Source: an uncultured Candidatus Saccharibacteria bacterium (GTDB lineage Bacteria; Patescibacteriota; Minisyncoccia; Phycocordibacterales; SBAW01). From it: a stretch of DNA of 64,000 bases. The DNA is taken from the NCBI GenBank assembly GCA_964457915.1, contig CAYWFM010000001.1:34623-98622 (forward strand), in the 5' to 3' direction. Under the pieces are notes generated by a model, which was given only the letters and a program-made list of their open reading frames with translations, was not told the DNA's origin and searched no databases. The translations under genes and the position numbers were made by a program. Of the stretch, positions 18,609 through 28,713 are shown in pieces; position 1 is the first letter of the stretch, and every line of letters starts with the position of its first letter.

Positions 18609-19040
18609 TTAGCTGGTTTTTCTTAGTCGGTCGAGATAACTCTGGAGGATGAGTGCTGCGGCAGAAGCGTCATAATTTTCTTGAACTACTTTATTCATCG
18701 GAACCCGTTGTGTAGGGCGCATCAGTTTACCCTGAACCTGTCGAAGGGCCTGCGCACTGGTAAAAAACTCTGGCTCAAATTCGACGACGACTCCGGCCGC
18801 CTGGAGCTGTTCGGCAAACTGCTCGATCTCCCCCATGATTGGGTTTGGCTTACCTGACAGGTCGCGCGACTCGCCCATAACAGCGATCTTCACCTCGTTC
18901 TCTTTCACAATATCGAGCACCTCACTAAGCGCCCCCACCCCACCCTCAACAGTGCCTAGTGGAAACGCCATGACCGCGCCCTCGTCTGAGACGGCGACTC
19001 CGATGCGCTTTTTACCATAATCAATCCCAAGATATTTCAC
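18609..19040 (-). CDS. ruvX: Putative pre-16S rRNA nuclease / Holliday junction resolvase-like protein YqgF
   Basis: MKYLGIDYGKKRIGVAVSD... canonical YqgF/RuvX N-terminus, 143 aa. Confidence 0.85.
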   Translation of the reverse strand: MKYLGIDYGKKRIGVAVSDEGAVMAFPLGTVEGGVGALSEVLDIVKENEVKIAVMGESRDLSGKPNPIMGEIEQFAEQLQAAGVVVEFEPEFFTSAQALRQVQGKLMRPTQRVPMNKVVQENYDASAAALILQSYLDRLRKTS

Positions 19041-19064
19041 TCGCCGATTGTACGTGGTTTTATC

Positions 19065-20561
19065 TCATTGCGCGAGCTCCACCAAGTGCTTCCAAATGGC
19101 ATACATCGCATAGGTGTCGAGCCCGCAGTAGGTCTTGAGATCACGAGCGATCACCTCGCGCTCCATGGGTGGTTGGCTAAGCATAGTCCACCACGCGTCC
19201 GAGGCCTGCGCCCCGCCGTGGATACTTAACTCCTTATATTGGAGTTCAGGCACAATCGCGGGCAGCACATATTTAATAGACACGCTGCCGCGAAACGCCG
19301 GGTGCACGTAGTACTGCTTATGAAACACGTCTTTAAGGTCATAAAACTGCGCGATGGTACGCTCGAGAAACGCGCGATGCTCAGGCAGCCTGGCTGCCAA
19401 CTTTTTGTGCACGTCCATCTCAAACGACTTGTTCCACGCAACAATCGTCCCCTGCTCGCCAATATGCTCTTCAAGCAGCACCACCACCGCCTCGGATGGG
19501 TCGCTCTGCTCCATGTGGAGATATTCAACGTGTTGCAGCTCGCCCGTAGGCTCGCGCAAAATGTGGAGTGAAAACTGAAACGGCACCTTATCAAACGGCC
19601 GAAAACCCGAGAAGAGCGGTACCGCGGGTGAAAAGGTTTCGTAATCTAAAAAGTAGAGCGGGAACTGGAGTGGAGCGAGCTCTTCGCGTATGGCGTCAGT
19701 GTCTATCATGGGCACCCCGCGCTTGTGCGCCAACACTTGGTTGTGCTGCGTGTCAGTTAGCTCAAACTCATCGGGCACATCGGCGATAGCAAAAATCTGA
19801 CTCTCCACGAGCGCGAGCAATTTCTTTTTACTCGAGCCGATGCGCGAAAGGTCATGGACCGAGTACTCAGGCACGTGCGGGTTAGAGTAGCTAAAGGTCG
19901 TGCAATGGTTACTGCGACCCTGAAAGATGCATTCGCAGCCACCCACCGGCTCGAGGCTTTGGGCTAAATATTCGCGCGCAACTTCCATCCGGCTCTCAAC
20001 CTCCGCGAGTCGCGCTAACACTTTCTCGCTCACATCGACCGTCGCAAATAGTTGGTCGACCTCTAACTCGCCCACGCGCACATACTCATTGTTGAGGTGC
20101 ATAACAAAACACTTCCCCACCTTCACTCCTGAGCGGCGCAAGACCGAGTATTGAAATGCGAGGTCGTCAAGGTGGTTGCGGTCCGAGCCGCTCTCGTGCA
20201 CGCCGCTGGTGCCTTTAATTTCAAAGAGGTCCCACGCACCATCCGCGCGCAGCGCGAGCACGTCGCTGCGCGCTAAAAATCCGTCGATGATAAACGTCGC
20301 TTGGAATATTGCCGGCACCTTGCTCGTGAGCAGCTTTGTCGTCTCAATGCACGCCTCCTGCCCATATTGCCGGACTTCCACCCCGCCCACGAATAGCCCA
20401 CGTGCGTGCGCCTCAACCTCGTTCCCCTCGTCGGCCAAATGCTGCTCGTAATCTGAAAGAGCGAACTTCTCTAAGAGCTCTGGCTTATTGCGCTTGAGCC
20501 ACAAATTTTTCGCACAAAACGAAAAATCCAAAAAGTCAGTTTTTGAAATCGGCTTTGGCAT
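19065..20561 (-). CDS. PD-(D/E)xK nuclease-family protein with Cys-cluster and C-terminal domain (DUF2779-like architecture)
   Basis: 498 aa. N-terminal ...D(x)nDLFEIKG motif (RecB/Cas4-like D...ExK), a central GGCECIFQGRSNHC Cys cluster, and a C-terminal conserved-looking domain. Confidence 0.45.
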   Translation of the reverse strand: MPKPISKTDFLDFSFCAKNLWLKRNKPELLEKFALSDYEQHLADEGNEVEAHARGLFVGGVEVRQYGQEACIETTKLLTSKVPAIFQATFIIDGFLARSDVLALRADGAWDLFEIKGTSGVHESGSDRNHLDDLAFQYSVLRRSGVKVGKCFVMHLNNEYVRVGELEVDQLFATVDVSEKVLARLAEVESRMEVAREYLAQSLEPVGGCECIFQGRSNHCTTFSYSNPHVPEYSVHDLSRIGSSKKKLLALVESQIFAIADVPDEFELTDTQHNQVLAHKRGVPMIDTDAIREELAPLQFPLYFLDYETFSPAVPLFSGFRPFDKVPFQFSLHILREPTGELQHVEYLHMEQSDPSEAVVVLLEEHIGEQGTIVAWNKSFEMDVHKKLAARLPEHRAFLERTIAQFYDLKDVFHKQYYVHPAFRGSVSIKYVLPAIVPELQYKELSIHGGAQASDAWWTMLSQPPMEREVIARDLKTYCGLDTYAMYAIWKHLVELAQ

Positions 20562-20632
20562 AGGAGCAACTATACTATGTCAAAACAAAACAGCGAAGAA
20601 CACAAAAAGAACCTGCCGCACAAGGCAGCAGG

Positions 20633-21520
20633 TCACTCCAACATCGCGAGACTCTCCTGAAGCAACTTCAACATACGGGCGATTTCTCGTCGTATCTCTT
20701 CAGGATTTTCAATATCCCTCAAAGACCTGCGTACACGCACCTTGAGGTCTTCCACCTCTGCGGCAAGTTTCAAGGTAAATGCTACCGTCCGCCCAGCATC
20801 TATTTTTCTAGCCCGAATCAGAGCCTCTTCCTGCTCCCGTATTAACACACGCAAGTGCGCGAGCTGCTCGTGCTCGGGCACATACGCAACCTTCAGCAAG
20901 ACGTTAATAGACGGGAGTGTTTGTGCGCATAGAATATACTCGCGCACATCAGCACCAAGGTACCGCAGTGCATAGCGCTGCTGCGACCAGGACTGCCCAG
21001 ACGACGAAACACCAAAGTGACGCTCTACATCCTTGTGGTTCTTACCCTGAGTACGCAGGCTCACTATCTGCCCGACAAGCTCAAACAACCGAGTCGCTTC
21101 GGGGTTATGTTGCGGCGGATCTGGTTGCTCCGGCAACTCAGGCGACACCTCTTCAATAGCCTCGTCAGCAACAGGTTCTGCAACCTCTCGTTTTTTTGTT
21201 TTAGCCGACTCGAGGGCCAGAACAGCACCCGCCTTAGAGTATGTCTTGAGATTTGCTACCGGATTTGCAACATGCTCGACACATAAACCAGTGACGGAGT
21301 TGACGACAAGGCTTTCGACCCCCTGCCCTAGACAAGTGATGCACAGTCGCTGGGGCGACCGACATTGTGATGCCATACATCCTTGGCGATTGTGGACAAT
21401 CCTATTGGTGGTAGCTGCACAGACAGGGCCCGACACACCCCGCGGGTTAAACACGCAGGGGTACAACCCATGCTCACGAGTCTCAACCTCGGGAGCTTCG
21501 GTGGACGCTTTTTTACTCAC
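20633..21520 (-). CDS. Hypothetical protein, N-terminal Cys-rich region and C-terminal coiled coil
   Basis: 295 aa. CVFNPRGVSGPVCAATTN...GCMASQCRSPQRLCITC cluster. C-terminus is heptad-like and charged. A candidate intrinsic terminator follows on the minus strand (~20600-20625). Confidence 0.4.
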   Translation of the reverse strand: MSKKASTEAPEVETREHGLYPCVFNPRGVSGPVCAATTNRIVHNRQGCMASQCRSPQRLCITCLGQGVESLVVNSVTGLCVEHVANPVANLKTYSKAGAVLALESAKTKKREVAEPVADEAIEEVSPELPEQPDPPQHNPEATRLFELVGQIVSLRTQGKNHKDVERHFGVSSSGQSWSQQRYALRYLGADVREYILCAQTLPSINVLLKVAYVPEHEQLAHLRVLIREQEEALIRARKIDAGRTVAFTLKLAAEVEDLKVRVRRSLRDIENPEEIRREIARMLKLLQESLAMLE

Positions 21521-21731
21521 ACGAACCTCCTTTGATTTTGAGAAACAACTAGGCTGCAGCTAGCATATGCTTTTCTCCTCAATACACAAGGCCACGTTCT
21601 AGATGAAACGTGGCCTCTTTGTTTTCTTCCCCACTTCTCCTTTTTATCCTTCTCAAAAAATTCTAAAGCGTGGGTGGACATAACACCCAAAGCCTACCAC
21701 TCCCCGGGCGGATTTTCATCCGGCGGGATAT

Positions 21732-21755
21732 ATAGAGGAAAGGAAATGGGCCGCC
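21732..21755 (+). repeat. 24-bp direct repeat, copy 1 (ATAGAGGAAAGGAAATGGGCCGCC), followed by a GC hairpin
   Basis: Exact 24/24 match to 22596-22619. The two copies bracket the trpF-like gene. Confidence 0.8.
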
Positions 21756-21783
21756 CACATGGGCAGCCCAATGAACCTGAGGT

Positions 21784-22545
21784 TCAAGCTGAAGAAGTGT
21801 ACTGTTTGAAAAGACCAGCTCCGTCTCGGACATATGCGCGCGCTGCGCCAGGTTTAAACAGGTCATTTTTATCGCGCATACGCCCCTCAGCATCGAGGCT
21901 AAAGGGTCCAAATTGAGCAATGAGCGGCCTGAGACGGTACAAGTTTGCGGCCTCCAGCCCACCCGCTACACCAAAACCAATGCCAGAGATACGCTCAAGG
22001 CATTCAAAATATTGTTGCACTTGATCTGGGTCGAAATCTCGTCCTGCACCACCGCTAGGGTCTATCAGTACATAGTCGGCGAGCTCTTGGTAGTTTTGTA
22101 ATCTAGCAACAAGAGCATCCCCCGATTGACCAATTTCTTTAAGCGCTAGCGGGCCACATTGGAGAATGATCTTCTTCCCCCTAGAAACCTCTTTATAGAG
22201 CTCGAGAAGCTGGGGGTCAGGCCACGCAAGATTAAGCTGCACACCATGGCAATAGGGGCCCGCCATAGCATCAGCAAACGCAAGATCATCTACAATCGCT
22301 TGCGTATCCACTTTGTCGCTATAGTAGTGAAGAACATTGAACGCTTTCGGATGTGGAGAGAATATCTGCGAAAACCTTTCAGGGCCGGGGTAGCGCCTGT
22401 TGGTGGTACCCTTGAGAGATTGTCTACTCACCAGCACACCGATCATGAGTTGGTGCGGTGAATCTTCTGGCATTACCTTAAGAATTTGTGTGACATGTCT
22501 CGGTGAATTAACACCCGTCACACCGATGTATGGCACTGGTCGCAT
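21784..22545 (-). CDS. trpF: Phosphoribosylanthranilate isomerase-like protein (TrpF family)
   Basis: IGVTGV at the N-terminus, LIDPSGGAGRDFD (GGSGxxFDW-like), VAGGLEAAN and SLDAEGRMRD motifs in TrpF order. The start is taken at MRPVPY. Confidence 0.55.
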   Translation of the reverse strand: MRPVPYIGVTGVNSPRHVTQILKVMPEDSPHQLMIGVLVSRQSLKGTTNRRYPGPERFSQIFSPHPKAFNVLHYYSDKVDTQAIVDDLAFADAMAGPYCHGVQLNLAWPDPQLLELYKEVSRGKKIILQCGPLALKEIGQSGDALVARLQNYQELADYVLIDPSGGAGRDFDPDQVQQYFECLERISGIGFGVAGGLEAANLYRLRPLIAQFGPFSLDAEGRMRDKNDLFKPGAARAYVRDGAGLFKQYTSSA

Positions 22546-22595
22546 AAGAAGCCCTTTCCTGTTGAACGACTGGTACATACATACCACATTTTGTG

Positions 22596-22619
22596 ATAGA
22601 GGAAAGGAAATGGGCCGCC
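22596..22619 (+). repeat. 24-bp direct repeat, copy 2, followed by perfect hairpin GGGCCGCC-GATAGTT-GGCGGCCC
   Basis: Exact match to copy 1. Lies ~50 bp upstream of the trpF-like start codon. Confidence 0.8.
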
Positions 22620-22914
22620 GATAGTTGGGCGGCCCGAGCTGTGGGGGGGATTAAAGACACGCGGAGAAGACTAGTCCTCCTAGCAATAGCACCGTGCCAA
22701 CAGCACAAACGAAATGCCACGGACGGAATTTGTGTTCGCTTTTTCGAGTCTTCTCAAGCATGAGCATGGGTGCAAGCATTACCTGTCCTCCTTCTAACCG
22801 CAGGTTATAGCACGAAATTAAGAATGTGCCAGCTGAAGGTTTGAGCAGACTTTCATGAGAGGGATACATATAAAAGGAAGAGGAGCGATGATCTGTTGAG
22901 ACAAACAGTATTAA

Positions 22915-23412
22915 GTGCTAGTGTTGCGCAGGAAAGTCACACACACTGCGAGGTTTTCAATGAAACCAGCACAAAGAGTTCTTAGAAGTTCTCCTTACAA
23001 TAAGGCTCTCAAGAAAGCTGTTGGAAGCCAAAGAGTTAAGCCTACTGCAAACAAAAAGCAAAGGACCAGACCACCACATAGACAAGCCCCACCCATAACA
23101 GACCTATTAGAGCTACTGGCAAAGGAGTATGAAAAACTTGGCTTTCTCCACCAGCCACCGACCATGAATGATGCGCGACGGATCGGTATCCCTCAAACAA
23201 GAAAGCGTTCAGTGCTTGGCACACTCTATGAACCCGCGTATCAGTTCCTTATACTGATCGGTCATCCTATCTTGGGTACGACTATTGGGGATCTTATGGT
23301 GGCACTCTACCCACTAGCCCCGAAGAAAATTGCGAGCCTCGCCGTTTTTCCAAATCAGTCTTACGTACGAGGCTCACTCGTCGCGAGCAGATTAAGAAGG
23401 CTCAAACGCTGA
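22915..23412 (+). CDS. Hypothetical basic protein
   Basis: 165 aa, Lys/Arg-rich N-terminal half, no recognisable motif. Followed by a strong intrinsic terminator. Confidence 0.4.
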   Translation: MLVLRRKVTHTARFSMKPAQRVLRSSPYNKALKKAVGSQRVKPTANKKQRTRPPHRQAPPITDLLELLAKEYEKLGFLHQPPTMNDARRIGIPQTRKRSVLGTLYEPAYQFLILIGHPILGTTIGDLMVALYPLAPKKIASLAVFPNQSYVRGSLVASRLRRLKR

Positions 23413-23428
23413 CCACTTTGGTCTCCTA

Positions 23429-23460
23429 GCCGCCGCAACTTCTTTGTGGCGGCTTTTTTA
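23429..23460 (+). terminator. Rho-independent terminator (GCCGCCGCAA-loop-TTGTGGCGGC + T6)
   Basis: 10-bp GC-rich stem, 5-nt loop, TTTTTT run, 17 bp after the stop of the 22915-23412 ORF. Confidence 0.75.
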
Positions 23461-23504
23461 TAAAAAGACAAAAGGGGTCGTGCAGTCTAGCTGCACTGAC
23501 CCCT
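23461..23504 (-). terminator. Minus-strand rho-independent terminator (hairpin GGGGTCAGTGCAG-CTAGA-CTGCACGACCCC followed by TTTTGTCTTTTT on the minus strand)
   Basis: 13-bp stem plus U-rich tract when read on the minus strand. No minus-strand protein gene lies upstream of it, which implies a non-coding transcript. Confidence 0.55.
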
Positions 23505-23990
23505 TTGCGGTCTCCGATGGAAAATCCACGGGAGAAGCGCCGCCTCCCACCGTAGGCCTTTACCCTACGGAGTTGGTTGCTTCTTAGCGCGGGCGCTGGC
23601 CCTGTTCATGTGTTTCGCACCTCGACCAAGGAACTAATGCGCGTGCGCACTATTTTTCCCCAGCTTCAACGATGAAAACACTTGTACTGGTTCCCCAAAA
23701 GAACGTACTGCATTTGCGCTGAAACGCAAAGCCCAGAGCTTCGGTACATGACTTGAGCCTCCGCACTTAGTCACGATTTAGAGACCTTAGCTACTAGTCC
23801 GGGGGCAAAACCCCTGGCGGTTCCGACCAAGGGTCGAAAAAGGCACGCTCTGGTGAGAAAATACCACACAACAACAGACCCCCACAAGCCTTGTATTAAA
23901 ACCACATTCTCATCAAGATGAACATCTACTTAGTGGTAGGCAAAGGCCACCCAAAGGCATGGCTCTATACAAAACACCGTTCCCCTATTA
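23505..23990 (-). ncRNA. Candidate structured non-coding RNA of unknown class (rnpB or ssrA considered but not confirmed)
   Basis: ~490 nt with no ORF of 60 aa or more in any frame, in an otherwise >90% coding window. GC-rich, with many local inverted repeats (e.g. GGGAGGCGGCGCTTCTCCC, CCTACGG...CCGTAGG). Has its own minus-strand terminator. Extent and strand are tentative. Confidence 0.3.
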
Positions 23991-24020
23991 GTATCTGTAG
24001 TGGTCACACCTAAAGCCCAC

Positions 24021-24105
24021 GGAGAGGTGGCTGAGTGGTCTAAAGCACCTGTCTTGAAAACAGGCGTGCCGCAAGGTACCGTGAGTTCGAATCTCACCCT
24101 CTCCG
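24021..24105 (+). tRNA. tRNA-Ser (anticodon TGA)
   Basis: Acceptor GGAGAGG/CCTCTCC, anticodon stem CCTGT/ACAGG with loop CTTGAAA, long variable arm, T-loop GTTCGAATC. CCA not encoded. Confidence 0.85.
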
Positions 24106-24110
24106 CAAAA

Positions 24111-24747: not shown

Positions 24748-24822
24748 GCTCCCGTCGTTCAATGGATAGGACGCATCCTTGCGGAGGATGCAATGTGGGT
24801 TCGATTCCTGCCGGGAGCACCA
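24748..24822 (+). tRNA. tRNA-Arg (anticodon reads GCG in the hand fold)
   Basis: Acceptor GCTCCCG/CGGGAGC, anticodon stem CATCC/GGATG, loop TTGCGGA, T-loop GGTTCGATTCC, CCA encoded, 4-nt variable loop. Confidence 0.7.
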
Positions 24823-24826
24823 CAAA

Positions 24827-24860
24827 ACAAAACCACCCCAATTGGGGTGGTTTTGTTTTG
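24827..24860. terminator. Bidirectional terminator between tRNA-Arg (+) and rpsT (-)
   Basis: AAAACCACCCC-AATT-GGGGTGGTTTT palindrome flanked by A-run and T-run. Works on both strands. Confidence 0.7.
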
Positions 24861-24863
24861 TGC

Positions 24864-28335: not shown

Positions 28336-28713
28336 CAATTTGACACAATTAATTTTTTAATGTATTCTAAACCTAGTTCAACGGGAGATTTTTCAATGGC
28401 ACGATGATCATTCCTCGCACCCTCAGCAGAAAAACTGGGCGCAACTGTCGAGATCTATCAAGGCTTTGAAGGTAAGGAGGCTGAAGAAAAGCGTAGACAG
28501 TTGCTGGAACAGCACGGAGACGCGCTTGTCGTCATGATCGACGGTAAAGAGGTGGACAACAAGCTACCTCTCACATAAGTAGCAGTGGGGCTGGTTGGGT
28601 ATGTTACCTCAGACCAGCCCCTTCGCATTTTAAATCACATCGTTCTAATAAGGCTTCCGGTTTTGTACCAGAGGGCGGACTTGTAACAAAAAATTTAAAG
28701 GCTCAACTTCTGT

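What the first reader, a model, noticed from the sequence alone, without database searches (positions are those of the whole stretch)
23461..23990. Unannotated ~500-nt ORF-free region with its own minus-strand terminator: probable structured ncRNA of unknown class
This is the only stretch in the window with no ORF of 60 aa or more on either strand. It lies between a plus-strand terminator (23429-23460) and tRNA-Ser. A strong hairpin (23474-23504) followed, on the minus strand, by TTTTGTCTTTTT would terminate a minus-strand transcript that has no protein gene to belong to. The region is GC-rich with numerous local helices (GGGAGGCGGCGCTTCTCCC, CCTACGG/CCGTAGG, GGGGCAAAACCCC).

The genome encodes rnpA (44011) and must also have ssrA and ffs, so rnpB, tmRNA or 6S are candidates. 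I could not find the RNase P P4 pair, a tmRNA tRNA-like 3' end, or the SRP domain IV motif by eye.
Basis: seen in the sequence. Interest (0 to 1): 0.55.

Follow-up and report, generated by a model that had tools for sequence, protein, structure and literature searches.

The report
Unclassified structured RNA with 16S-like domain
The gene-free stretch beside tRNA-Ser in this tiny Parcubacteria genome is very probably a real, strongly conserved, ~425-nt structured non-coding RNA gene that is not RNase P RNA, tmRNA, 6S or SRP RNA; instead it belongs to an undescribed RNA family that always sits next to the same very basic small protein and carries a domain resembling helix 11 of 16S ribosomal RNA.

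Summary
Window 23413-23929 is the largest ORF-free stretch, flanked by back-to-back terminators and tRNA-Ser. A minus-strand RNA of ~425 nt (~23889 to 23465) folds far better than shuffles (z = -5.8; plus strand -1.4).

Against its only close homologue (L001), the 152-nt five-way-junction core shows 9 substitutions in ~170 nt. Synonymous sites in flanking genes differ at 35-42%. Eleven base pairs are compensated (0-2 in slid controls).

No Rfam family matches at E<=10, and ARAGORN finds no tmRNA or intron-split tRNA.

The convergent 150-aa neighbour (pI 11.2, no Pfam) has two remote homologues, each followed by an uncalled 380-595-nt gap. Those gaps share the window RNA's 3' domain, with covarying stems. 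A model built only from the two distant RNAs hits window 23533-23600(-) at E = 1.8e-6 and nothing else in 437 kb.

Family members carry collinear 16S rRNA strings (up to 19/19), and the shared domain has helix-11 architecture. I read this as a new protein-RNA module with a 16S-mimicking RNA. Function is inferred, not shown, and the family has only four distinct sequences.

The parts
23890..23925 (-). Conserved upstream block, putative promoter. TTTTAATAC lies at 23894-23902, with a -10-like TTTAAT at 23896-23901. The transcript start is inferred near 23889.
   Evidence: Identity with L001 rises from 25-47% to 70% exactly here. No consensus sigma-70 site was called by the scan, so the promoter is inferred only.
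23465..23889 (-). The whole predicted ncRNA, about 425 nt (about 475 nt in L001).
   Evidence: MFE -181 kcal/mol, z = -5.81, MFE equal to centroid. 117 consensus pairs are all standard in both species, with 11 doubly changed. 12 G-U pairs would be A-C on the plus strand.
23881..23887 (-). P0 5' strand (UUGUGGG), which pairs with 23505-23510 (CCGCAA). This 5'/3' end-closing helix sits just before the terminator.
   Evidence: One U-G to C-G change; otherwise invariant.
23852..23880 (-). 5' leader containing the invariant GGUAUUUUCUCACC. The start of candidate micro-ORF1 (GUG at 23867-23865) lies inside it.
   Evidence: 100% identity over 23826-23865. ORF analysis.
23700..23851 (-). Core five-way junction:
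- P1: 23843-23851 with 23700-23708
- H1: 23821-23839
- H2: 23799-23817
- H3: 23733-23797, with a GGAG tetraloop
- H4: 23710-23732
   Evidence: The same fold appears in the independent MFEs of window and L001. There are two compensated pairs (23784/23745 and 23763/23758) and two G-U switches. All substitutions are transitions. Model R1 hits only window, L001 and L084, so the core is specific to this Parcubacteria lineage.
23787..23867 (-). Candidate micro-ORF1 (GUG...UAA, 26 codons, MVFSHQSVPFSTLGRNRQGFCPRTSS), overlapping P1, H1, H2 and the 5' strand of H3.
   Evidence: Four of four substitutions are synonymous, the start changes GTG to TTG, and one codon is deleted in frame. P is about 0.013 per frame and about 0.04 after correcting for three frames. 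Suggestive only: the SD is weak and 11 nt away, and the synonymous sites are themselves constrained (P = 0.016).
23597..23699 (-). Variable linker: a long hairpin with apical GUGCGCACGCGCAU. In L001 it is 53 nt longer and carries the 16S helix-8-like segment GGGGGAUAAC-CCUUAG...CUAAGG-GCUAAUACCGCAUA.
   Evidence: 10-45% identity with several indels. 16S matches at rrsH positions 144-153 and 168-181.
23533..23600 (-). Family-wide conserved 3' domain, with helix-11-like architecture:
- closing stem GCGCC(C)GC / GC(G)GCGC
- hairpin a, GCU-AAGA-AGC (23579-23588)
- hairpin b, CCGUAGG-GUAAAGG-CCUACGG (inside 23547-23576)
   Evidence: Model R2, built only from L105 and L111, hits exactly here: 34.9 bits, E = 1.8e-6, the only non-training hit in 437 kb on both strands. 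In hairpin b, 4 of 7 pairs change on both sides across 4 sequences and none is broken. The closing stem differs completely in sequence in each lineage yet stays paired.
23511..23535 (-). Hairpin UCUCC-loop-GGAGA with a variable loop (15 nt here, 4 nt in L001).
23461..23504 (-). Intrinsic terminator of the RNA: hairpin at 23473-23504, then UUUGUCUUUUUA.
   Evidence: 97% identical to L001, with one U-A to U-G change. It sits back-to-back with the plus-strand terminator at 23428-23454.
22960..23412 (+). Convergent partner gene: a 150-aa, very basic (pI 11.2), predicted all-helical protein with no Pfam, NCBIfam, PHROG or PADLOC match.
   Evidence: Only two close homologues exist among 5.8e9 proteins. 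Two remote full-length homologues, P0171 and P0172 (pI 11.4 and 11.9), are each followed by a homologous RNA on the opposite strand.

Best explanation
The region is an independent gene on the minus strand for a stable, highly structured non-coding RNA of about 425 nt (~23889 to 23465).

Anatomy:
- The 5' and 3' ends pair (P0) just before an intrinsic terminator.
- A 152-nt five-way-junction core is almost invariant between the two species that have it.
- A fast-evolving linker hairpin follows.
- The 3' domain is a three-helix unit: a closing stem, a small GCU-NNGR-AGC hairpin, and a 7-bp hairpin with a 7-nt GUAAMGG loop.

The 3' domain is the family signature. It recurs, with covarying stems, next to remote homologues of the neighbouring 150-aa very basic helical protein in two other, unrelated genomic contexts. 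RNA and protein therefore form a conserved, convergently transcribed two-gene module.

The shared domain has the architecture and, in the distant members, the exact loop and stem sequence of helix 11 of 16S rRNA. Other members also carry collinear helix-7 and helix-8 strings.

Proposed mechanism (inferred, not shown): the RNA is a molecular mimic of the 'lower body' of the 16S 5' domain. It binds and titrates either its basic partner protein or a ribosomal or assembly protein that normally recognises helix 11. It would act as a decoy, sponge or antidote, in the way 6S RNA mimics an open promoter or ribosomal-protein operators mimic rRNA sites.

In the Parcubacteria lineage the module sits in a hypervariable island between ruvX and tRNA-Ser and has acquired the extra five-way-junction core.

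My confidence by step:
- a real structured ncRNA gene: about 0.85
- a conserved protein-RNA module: about 0.6
- a 16S mimic or decoy: about 0.3

The overall figure of 0.5 is for the statement taken as a whole.
For: Real structured RNA on the minus strand:
- z = -5.81 on the minus strand against -1.44 on the plus strand.
- 117 of 117 consensus pairs are standard in both species, with 11 doubly changed against 0-2 when partners are slid.
- 9-12 G-U pairs would be mismatches on the plus strand.

Selection:
- The core has 9 substitutions in ~170 nt, against 35-42% third-position divergence in flanking genes.
- Conservation is local. The adjacent ORF is 78% identical and the linker 10-45%, so this is not recent transfer.

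Not a known family: Rfam; ARAGORN.

Module:
- The profile search gives two full-length remote homologues of the protein (E = 4.6e-5 and 2.1e-4 against 1.8e9 proteins).
- Both are followed by uncalled gaps of 595 and 380 nt.
- Both gaps fold better on the strand opposite the protein gene.
- The gaps share the 3' domain with covariation.
- Model R2, trained only on those two, finds window 23533-23600(-) at E = 1.8e-6 as its only other hit.
- All four proteins have pI 11.2-11.9.

16S likeness, against annotated E. coli rrsH:
- L111 matches 254-272 (19/19).
- L105 matches 119-128 and 255-271 (17/17).
- L001 matches 144-153 and 168-181 (14/14).
- All are collinear and sense-strand only.
- L001 keeps a helix-8-like stem between its two strings.
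Against: - Only four distinct RNA sequences (two of them sisters) and four proteins define the family, so covariation statistics are thin.
- The protein homology is weak (26-32% identity), though full-length.
- Model R2 did not score L001 at E<=10, because its hairpin-b loop differs.
- The window copy itself has lost most 16S-like strings. It keeps only the helix-11-like architecture, the GUAAAGG loop and CCUACGG.GGGAGGC.
- Rfam's SSU model does not register any member, so the rRNA resemblance is confined to motifs.
- The partner protein shows no similarity to S20, and its structure could not be predicted (pLDDT 43).
- No expression data exist, and no promoter was called.
- The five-way-junction core, the most constrained part in this window, has no counterpart in the distant members. 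Its role is unexplained by the mimicry idea.
- A coding-like substitution pattern overlaps the core.
Confidence: 0.5

Rival explanations
1. A lineage-restricted structured ncRNA with no functional tie to the neighbouring protein. The 16S-like strings and the similar gaps next to remote protein homologues would then be coincidental or of no functional meaning.
For: - The most constrained part, the core, is found only in window, L001 and L084.
- Protein homology to P0171 and P0172 is marginal.
- The genes are convergent, not an operon.
- The window copy lacks most 16S strings.
Against: - The independent model R2 hits exactly the window's 3' domain at E = 1.8e-6 and nothing else.
- Arrangement, strand and gap size match in all three contexts.
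- Three helices covary.
Confidence: 0.2
2. An mRNA or dual-function RNA. The transcript would encode one or more micro-proteins (ORF1 at 23867-23787, 26 codons), and the structure would serve mainly to control its translation or stability, as in type I toxin mRNAs such as hok, which also pair their 5' and 3' ends.
For: - ORF1 has 4 of 4 synonymous substitutions, GTG to TTG at the start and one in-frame codon deletion. P is about 0.013 per frame.
- The 5'/3' end pairing and the patchy, island-like distribution resemble type I toxin loci.
Against: - Synonymous sites of ORF1 are themselves constrained (4 of 25 changed against 38% expected; P = 0.016).
- All four changes are also structure-neutral.
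- The SD is weak and 11 nt from a non-ATG start.
- The peptide is not hydrophobic.
- Conservation at 90-97% continues 90 nt past the stop, across a 1-nt indel.
- ORF2, which has a good SD and an ATG, shows only a non-synonymous change, and that change is the compensatory partner of a stem pair.
- Gene callers predict nothing in this stretch.
Confidence: 0.1
3. A decaying relic of a 16S rRNA gene 5' domain (an ectopic rRNA fragment or pseudogene) with no present function.
For: - Collinear 16S strings in L001, L105 and L111.
- The part of the RNA carrying those strings in L001 is the fast-evolving linker, and it is partly deleted in the window.
Against: - The core and terminator evolve about 7 times more slowly than synonymous sites.
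- Compensatory changes maintain helices.
- It has its own terminator.
- The SSU covariance model does not match.
- Its association with a homologous protein is retained in three unrelated genomic contexts.
Confidence: 0.08
4. A divergent housekeeping RNA (RNase P RNA, tmRNA, 6S RNA or SRP RNA).
For: - The size, the 5'/3' end pairing, the dedicated terminator and strong conservation are typical of stable RNAs.
- In L111 the homologous RNA lies next to smpB.
Against: - No Rfam hit at E<=10 in four members.
- ARAGORN finds no tmRNA at relaxed settings.
- By reading the sequence I found no T-arm or CCA end, no P4 strands and no rod-with-bubble architecture.
- The RNA is absent from the same slot in sister species, where an unrelated GIY-YIG gene sits.
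Confidence: 0.02
5. An intron-containing tRNA gene or a free-standing group I intron of the divergent Patescibacteria type that escapes RF00028.
For: - Such introns are reported in Patescibacteria and are missed by RF00028 and by default ARAGORN (PMC13011429).
- The locus is next to a tRNA gene.
Against: - ARAGORN in intron mode, including relaxed thresholds, finds no split tRNA in window or L001.
- No tRNA-like exon halves flank the structure.
- No group I model matches at E<=10.
- The element ends in a terminator rather than in a 3' exon.
Confidence: 0.02

Closest known systems
Helix 11 (and helices 7-8) of the 16S rRNA 5' domain
   Same: - The family's shared domain has a base stem, internal loops and an upper 7-8-bp stem capped by a GUAAMGG loop.
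- L111 and L105 are identical to E. coli rrsH over 19 and 17 nt there.
- L001 and L105 also carry collinear h7/h8 strings, and L001 has an h8-like stem.
   Different: - It is not part of an rRNA gene.
- The SSU covariance model does not match.
- An extra mini-hairpin (GCU-NNGR-AGC) is inserted in the 5' internal loop.
- The closing stems differ entirely in sequence.
- The window copy keeps the architecture but few of the strings.
rRNA-mimicking operators of ribosomal-protein operons, and other decoy RNAs (6S RNA, CsrB-type sponges)
   Same: The proposed logic is the same: an RNA that imitates the natural nucleic-acid target of a protein and so titrates it. This comparison rests on my own knowledge of those systems.
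   Different: - Operators are short 5'-UTR elements acting in cis on an r-protein mRNA. This is a 330-575-nt stand-alone transcript with its own terminator.
- Its partner is a non-ribosomal orphan protein encoded convergently.
- No binding has been shown.
GOLLD and ROOL large ornate RNAs
   Same: - Large, multi-junction bacterial RNAs of unknown function.
- Patchy distribution.
- Often located near tRNA genes (PMC5737381).
   Different: - No match to either Rfam model at E<=10.
- This RNA is smaller (425-575 nt against 581 and about 800 nt).
- There is no prophage context.
- It has a conserved protein partner.
Type III toxin-antitoxin systems (ToxIN-like) and type I toxin mRNAs (hok)
   Same: - A small protein gene adjacent to a structured RNA gene in variable genomic islands.
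- 5'/3' end pairing of the RNA, as in hok mRNA.
   Different: - The RNA has no tandem repeats.
- The genes are convergent rather than co-transcribed.
- There is no PADLOC match.
- There is no hydrophobic toxin ORF.
tmRNA
   Same: Similar size, paired ends, an internal short ORF-like frame ending in UAA, and one family member adjacent to smpB.
   Different: - No tRNA-like domain, T-loop or CCA end.
- ARAGORN and Rfam are negative.
- The peptide does not end in a hydrophobic Ala-rich tag.

Membership tests
Bacterial RNase P RNA (types A and B) | Score at or above the Rfam gathering threshold, or at least a weak covariance-model hit | tested here: not met
   No RNaseP model at E<=10 in the window or in L001.
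Bacterial RNase P RNA (types A and B) | Universally conserved P4 strands (GGAAAGUCC... / ACAGAA..CGGCUUA) | tested here: not met
   These strings are absent from the minus-strand sequence read. This was checked by eye only.
tmRNA | A tRNA-like domain (acceptor stem with G-U, T-arm, ACCA end) detected by ARAGORN or Rfam | tested here: not met
   ARAGORN at default and relaxed settings finds none. No tmRNA-clan Rfam hit. The stem next to the 3' end has a 15-nt loop here and a 4-nt loop in L001, not a 7-nt T-loop.
6S RNA | A rod-like, ~180-nt helix with a large central bubble; Rfam 6S model | tested here: not met
   The fold is multi-branched, with five-way and three-way junctions, and spans 425 nt. 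No 6S hit.
SRP RNA (4.5S or large) | Domain IV motif; Rfam model | tested here: not met
   No SRP hit at E<=10.
Group I intron in a tRNA gene (Patescibacteria type) | Flanking tRNA exon halves that reconstitute a cloverleaf | tested here: not met
   ARAGORN in intron mode at several thresholds finds only tRNA-Ser. The tFind model gpI_bact_tRNA.cm named in PMC13011429 was not available to me.
GOLLD / ROOL | Match to the family covariance model | tested here: not met
   No hit at E<=10.
GOLLD / ROOL | Location near tRNA genes and patchy distribution | tested here: met
   The RNA is adjacent to tRNA-Ser in window and L001 and absent in sister species. This is a resemblance only, not membership.
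Bona fide 16S rRNA fragment or pseudogene | Alignment to the SSU covariance model | tested here: not met
   No SSU hit at E<=10 in any of the four members.
Bona fide 16S rRNA fragment or pseudogene | Collinear signature strings of the 5' domain | tested here: inconclusive
   Present in L001, L105 and L111 (10-19-nt exact, collinear, sense strand only). In the window copy only 7-nt words at 341-352 remain.
Bona fide 16S rRNA fragment or pseudogene | Neutral decay, as expected of a pseudogene | tested here: not met
   The core diverges at about 5% against 35-42% at synonymous sites. Helices are maintained by compensatory changes.
Type III toxin-antitoxin | Antitoxin RNA made of tandem repeats, encoded upstream of the toxin on the same strand | tested here: not met
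   No tandem or direct repeats inside the RNA. The genes are convergent. No PADLOC match.
Ribosomal-protein operator (rRNA mimic) | Lies in the 5' UTR of the regulated r-protein operon | tested here: not met
   It is a stand-alone transcript ending in a terminator with no downstream gene on its strand.
Ribosomal-protein operator (rRNA mimic) | Bound by the protein that binds the imitated rRNA site | not testable with these tools
   This needs binding assays with uS17, bS20 and the 150-aa protein.

The most novel reading that the evidence does not exclude
A previously undescribed two-gene module is found in very different genomic contexts. A stand-alone structured RNA imitates the helix 7-11 'lower body' of the 16S rRNA 5' domain, and it is always paired with a very basic ~140-160-aa helical protein. 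The RNA would serve as a decoy or antidote for a ribosome-directed protein, or as a regulator of 30S assembly. In the Parcubacteria lineage it has acquired an extra, extremely conserved five-way-junction domain that may also encode a 26-codon peptide.
Probability: 0.3. Interest if true: 0.8.

Novelty: categorically new. Interest (0 to 1): 0.62.

Why it matters
If the reading is right, three things follow.

- **A new RNA and protein family.** This is a structured RNA family absent from Rfam 15, with a partner protein family absent from Pfam, NCBIfam, PHROGs and PADLOC.
- **A possible new regulatory principle.** A free-standing RNA copy of a ribosomal RNA subdomain would be used to capture a protein. 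That would add an rRNA mimic to the short list of bacterial decoy RNAs (6S RNA, CsrB). It would also give an experimental handle on how proteins recognise the 16S 5' domain during 30S assembly or attack.
- **Relevance to Patescibacteria.** These organisms have minimal genomes and no genetics. A 425-nt RNA held at about 5% divergence while synonymous sites reach about 40% is among the most constrained non-coding elements in the window, so it is presumably important to the cell or to a selfish element.

Even on the cautious reading it corrects the annotation. This is not a housekeeping RNA, and the "empty" 0.5 kb is a gene.

Tried and rejected
**Known RNA families**
- Rfam at gathering score on the whole window and on 12 relatives, and at E<=10 on the region and on the three homologous regions, gave nothing relevant.
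- ARAGORN for tmRNA, permuted tmRNA and intron-containing tRNA, also at relaxed thresholds, gave nothing.
- The group I intron idea came from PMC13011429 and was rejected.

**Searches for more RNA homologues**
- blastn, nhmmer and model R1 against 80+ syntenic Parcubacteria loci found only L001 and L084.
- An R/Y-coded pattern scan of JGI metagenomes gave 0 hits.
- A loop-anchored pattern gave 2 hits. Both are chance matches in AT-rich sequence with no covariance-model support.
- Five viral-contig scans gave 0 hits.
- blastn against phage and plasmid collections gave none. tblastn of P0171 against the same collections gave none.
- Logan contigs of intermediate lineages (L090, L091) break inside tRNA-Ser, so a third close sequence could not be obtained.

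**Neighbouring genes and island structure**
- Tests for mobile-element or defence identity (Pfam, PADLOC, PHROGs, NCBIfam) gave nothing.
- The search for att-like repeats of the tRNA-Ser 3' end found none.

**Partner protein**
- The AlphaFold model had pLDDT 43 and was unusable, so no fold search was run.
- There was no PDB sequence match and no similarity to S20 by hhalign.

**Other ideas**
- Trans-target search: complements of the invariant unpaired segments have no significant match in the window.
- ORF2 (ATG with a GGAGG SD) and the 44-aa and 46-aa ORFs were rejected as coding. They show non-synonymous or radical changes and a frame-breaking indel.
Full report
**1. What is in the sequence**

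The window comes from a Patescibacteria (Parcubacteria) genome close to Adlerbacteria and Kaiserbacteria.

Between the 150-aa ORF at 22960-23412 (+) and tRNA-Ser(tga) at 24021-24106 (+) lies the longest stretch of the window with no ORF of 60 aa or more: 23413-23929, 517 nt. It is not the only such stretch. 28347-28713 is the next, but it holds a 50-59-aa ORF and a terminator.

The plus-strand terminator at 23428-23454 is confirmed. So is the hairpin at 23473-23504, which is followed on the minus strand by UUUGUCUUUUU. GC content is only modestly raised: 0.515 against 0.489 for the window.

**2. It is a structured RNA on the minus strand**

Folding:
- The 425-nt stretch 23889 to 23465 folds at -181 kcal/mol, z = -5.81, with the MFE equal to the centroid.
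- The plus strand of the larger region gives z = -1.44.

Comparison with the only close homologue, L001 (MAG JAUPWA01, RuvA 94% identical):
- A copy identical to L001's occurs in an independent sample (L084).
- A 152-nt core (23700-23851) and the terminator are 93-100% identical.
- The adjacent ORF is 78% identical and the linker 10-45%.
- Third codon positions of the flanking genes differ at 35-42%. Nine substitutions in ~170 nt therefore mean strong purifying selection at every position (P about 1e-23).
- Because the conservation is local, it is not the trace of a recent transfer.

Structure support:
- All 117 consensus pairs are standard in both species.
- Eleven pairs changed on both sides, against 0-2 when partners are slid by 1-3 columns.
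- All core substitutions are transitions. They either compensate each other (23784/23745 and 23763/23758), switch G-U to G-C or A-U, or fall in loops.
- Nine to twelve G-U pairs would be A-C mismatches on the other strand.

**3. Anatomy**

| Element | Window coordinates (minus strand) |
|---|---|
| P0, 5'/3' closing helix | 23881-23887 with 23505-23510 |
| Invariant leader | 23852-23880 |
| P1 of the five-way junction | 23843-23851 with 23700-23708 |
| H1 | 23821-23839 |
| H2 | 23799-23817 |
| H3 | 23733-23797 |
| H4 | 23710-23732 |
| Variable long hairpin | 23597-23699 |
| 3' three-helix domain | 23537-23596 |
| Hairpin with variable loop | 23511-23535 |
| Terminator | 23461-23504 |

A conserved AT-rich block at 23890-23925 probably holds the promoter, but no consensus site was called.

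**4. What it is not**

- No Rfam 15 family reaches E<=10 in the window copy or the L001 copy.
- ARAGORN finds no tmRNA, no permuted tmRNA and no intron-split tRNA, even at relaxed settings.
- The intron test was prompted by a report that divergent group I introns hide tRNA genes in Patescibacteria (PMC13011429).
- The multi-junction fold is unlike 6S RNA. By eye I found no P4 strands and no T-arm or CCA end.
- The RNA is absent from the same slot in the next-closest species. There an unrelated GIY-YIG gene and other orphans lie between ruvX and tRNA-Ser.

The locus is a hypervariable island. Even tRNA-Ser differs in orientation, and an umuDC operon is present or absent, independently of whether the RNA is there.

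The neighbours have no phage, plasmid or defence signatures.

**5. A coding-like signal inside the core**

In the frame from GUG 23867 to UAA 23787 (26 codons), all four substitutions are synonymous. The start changes from GTG to TTG, and the only indel removes one codon. The probability is about 0.013 per frame.

Against a simple coding reading:
- The ORF's synonymous sites are themselves constrained (P = 0.016).
- The four changes are also structure-neutral.
- Translation signals are weak.
- Conservation continues 90 nt beyond the stop, across a frame-breaking indel.

I keep a translated micro-ORF as a minor or dual possibility. The other ORFs are rejected.

**6. The turn: a conserved protein partner and a wider RNA family**

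The convergent 150-aa protein is an orphan. Only two relatives exist among 5.8e9 clustered proteins. It has no family match and pI 11.2.

An exhaustive profile search found two remote but full-length homologues:
- P0171: 139 aa, E = 4.6e-5
- P0172: 161 aa, E = 2.1e-4
- Both are equally basic.

In their contigs:
- P0171 occurs in 8 contigs, identical in the 6 I fetched. It is followed by a 595-nt gap with no convincing gene.
- P0172 is followed by a 380-nt gap and then smpB.
- Read on the strand opposite the protein gene, as in the window, these gaps end in terminator hairpins and fold better than the antisense strand.

The gaps share the window RNA's 3' domain:

| Element | window | L001 | L105 | L111 |
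|---|---|---|---|---|
| Closing stem | GCGCC/GGCGC | GCGCU/AGCGC | UCGGCAU/GUGCCGA | CUGAUAC/GUAUCAG |
| Hairpin a | GCU-AAGA-AGC | GGCU-AAGG-AGCC | CGCU-UUGG-AGCG | GCU-UUGG-AGC |
| Hairpin b | CCGUAGG-GUAAAGG-CCUACGG | CCAUUGG-AGAGAAC-CCAAUGG | CCGUGGG-GUAACGG-CUCACGG | UGGUGGG-GUAACGG-CUCACCA |

In hairpin b, 4 of 7 pairs change on both sides and none is broken.

As an independent test I built a covariance model from L105 and L111 only. In 437 kb searched on both strands, its single non-training hit is window 23533-23600 on the minus strand, at 34.9 bits and E = 1.8e-6. The core model R1 does not hit the distant members, so the five-way junction is a lineage-specific addition.

**7. Resemblance to 16S rRNA**

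The shared strings are signature sequences of the 16S 5' domain. Against the annotated E. coli rrsH gene, the matches are:
- L111: positions 254-272 (19/19)
- L105: positions 119-128 and 255-271 (17/17)
- L001: positions 144-153 (GGGGGAUAAC) and 168-181 (GCUAAUACCGCAUA)

All are collinear and on the sense strand. The antisense control gives only isolated 10-mers.

In L001 the stem CCUUAG/CUAAGG between the two strings reproduces helix 8.

The family-wide 3' domain has the layout of helix 11: a base stem, internal loops and an upper stem with a GUAACGG loop. An extra mini-hairpin is inserted.

These are not rRNA fragments in the ordinary sense:
- The SSU model does not score them.
- They are under selection.

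The window copy has lost most of the strings, which lie in its fast-evolving linker. It keeps the helix-11-like domain.

**8. Interpretation**

| Step | Status |
|---|---|
| A selected, structured, separately terminated minus-strand RNA gene | Shown |
| Not a member of any Rfam family | Shown |
| A homologous 3' domain occurs next to homologues of the same basic protein | Shown |
| The domain and neighbouring strings resemble 16S helices 7-11 | Shown |
| RNA and protein act together | Inferred |
| The RNA works as a mimic of the 16S 5'-domain surface that titrates its partner or a ribosomal or assembly protein | Inferred |

From my own knowledge, uS17 and bS20 are the primary binders of this part of 16S. 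The partner protein is not S20-like.

Unexplained:
- the role of the five-way-junction core
- the possible micro-ORF
- the taxonomy of L105 and L111

**9. Verdict**

What emerges is an undescribed RNA-protein module.

The evidence base is small: four RNAs and four proteins, with no expression data. I therefore score interest at 0.62 rather than higher.

Noticed in passing
window 24021-24106; L001 2389-2476; L094 8131-8217; L003 ~2664-2740: tRNA-Ser(tga) lies on opposite strands in close relatives. In window and L003 it is on the + strand with its own conserved upstream region and no umuDC. In L001, L002, L084 and L094 it is on the - strand, directly downstream of a umuD-umuC operon that the window lacks (no tblastn hit). 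Presence of the RNA does not track either arrangement. Logan contigs of several lineages break inside this tRNA, which may mean the arrangement varies within populations.
   Followed up: partly
window 18609-24020, compared with L094 5917-8130 and L003 645-2660: The whole interval between ruvX and tRNA-Ser is a hypervariable island. The window carries a DUF2779 protein, a 295-aa orphan, a 253-aa weak PRAI-like TIM barrel, a 42-aa ORF, the 150-aa protein and the RNA. Sister species carry unrelated orphans, including an 83-aa GIY-YIG protein.
   Followed up: partly
window 21732-21770 and 22596-22635; L001 ~2340-2385: A perfect 24-nt direct repeat (ATAGAGGAAAGGAAATGGGCCGCC) runs into GGGCCGC...GCGGCCC hairpins. 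On the minus strand these look like a reused terminator module (hairpin plus AUUUCCUUUCCUC), flanking the 253-aa gene. A similar module follows tRNA-Ser in L001.
   Followed up: no
window 28337-28713: This is the second-largest stretch with no ORF of 60 aa or more, just after tRNA-Lys. It contains a 50-59-aa ORF with an SD and a strong terminator hairpin. The minus strand folds with z = -3.1.
   Followed up: partly
window 24821-24862: A perfect 21+21-nt palindrome (CACAAAACAAAACCACCCCAA / TTGGGGTGGTTTTGTTTTGTG) lies between tRNA-Arg(gcg) and the minus-strand rpsT gene. It is probably a bidirectional terminator.
   Followed up: no
L032 9903-9976: ARAGORN calls a tRNA with anticodon UUA ('tRNA-Stop'), with the anticodon at position 35, where relatives have tRNA-Lys(ttt). 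This may be a one-base shift in anticodon placement rather than a suppressor tRNA.
   Followed up: no
L004 12364-12485: A LOOT RNA (RF03000, 65.7 bits) is present in a related Adlerbacteria contig.
   Followed up: no
L105 220-4967: Upstream of the P0171 gene the contig carries pairs of small ORFs (96 aa and 76 aa) repeated three times, with no Pfam hits. This looks like a repeated gene cassette next to the protein-RNA module.
   Followed up: no
L111 1315-2327: In this contig the homologous RNA lies directly upstream of, and divergent from, smpB, the tmRNA-binding protein. No tmRNA was detected in the 2.8-kb contig.
   Followed up: partly
L003 2702-2711: The tRNA-Ser of L003 contains a run of N (a masked stretch), which is why ARAGORN missed it while Rfam scored it at 44.9 bits.
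   Followed up: no
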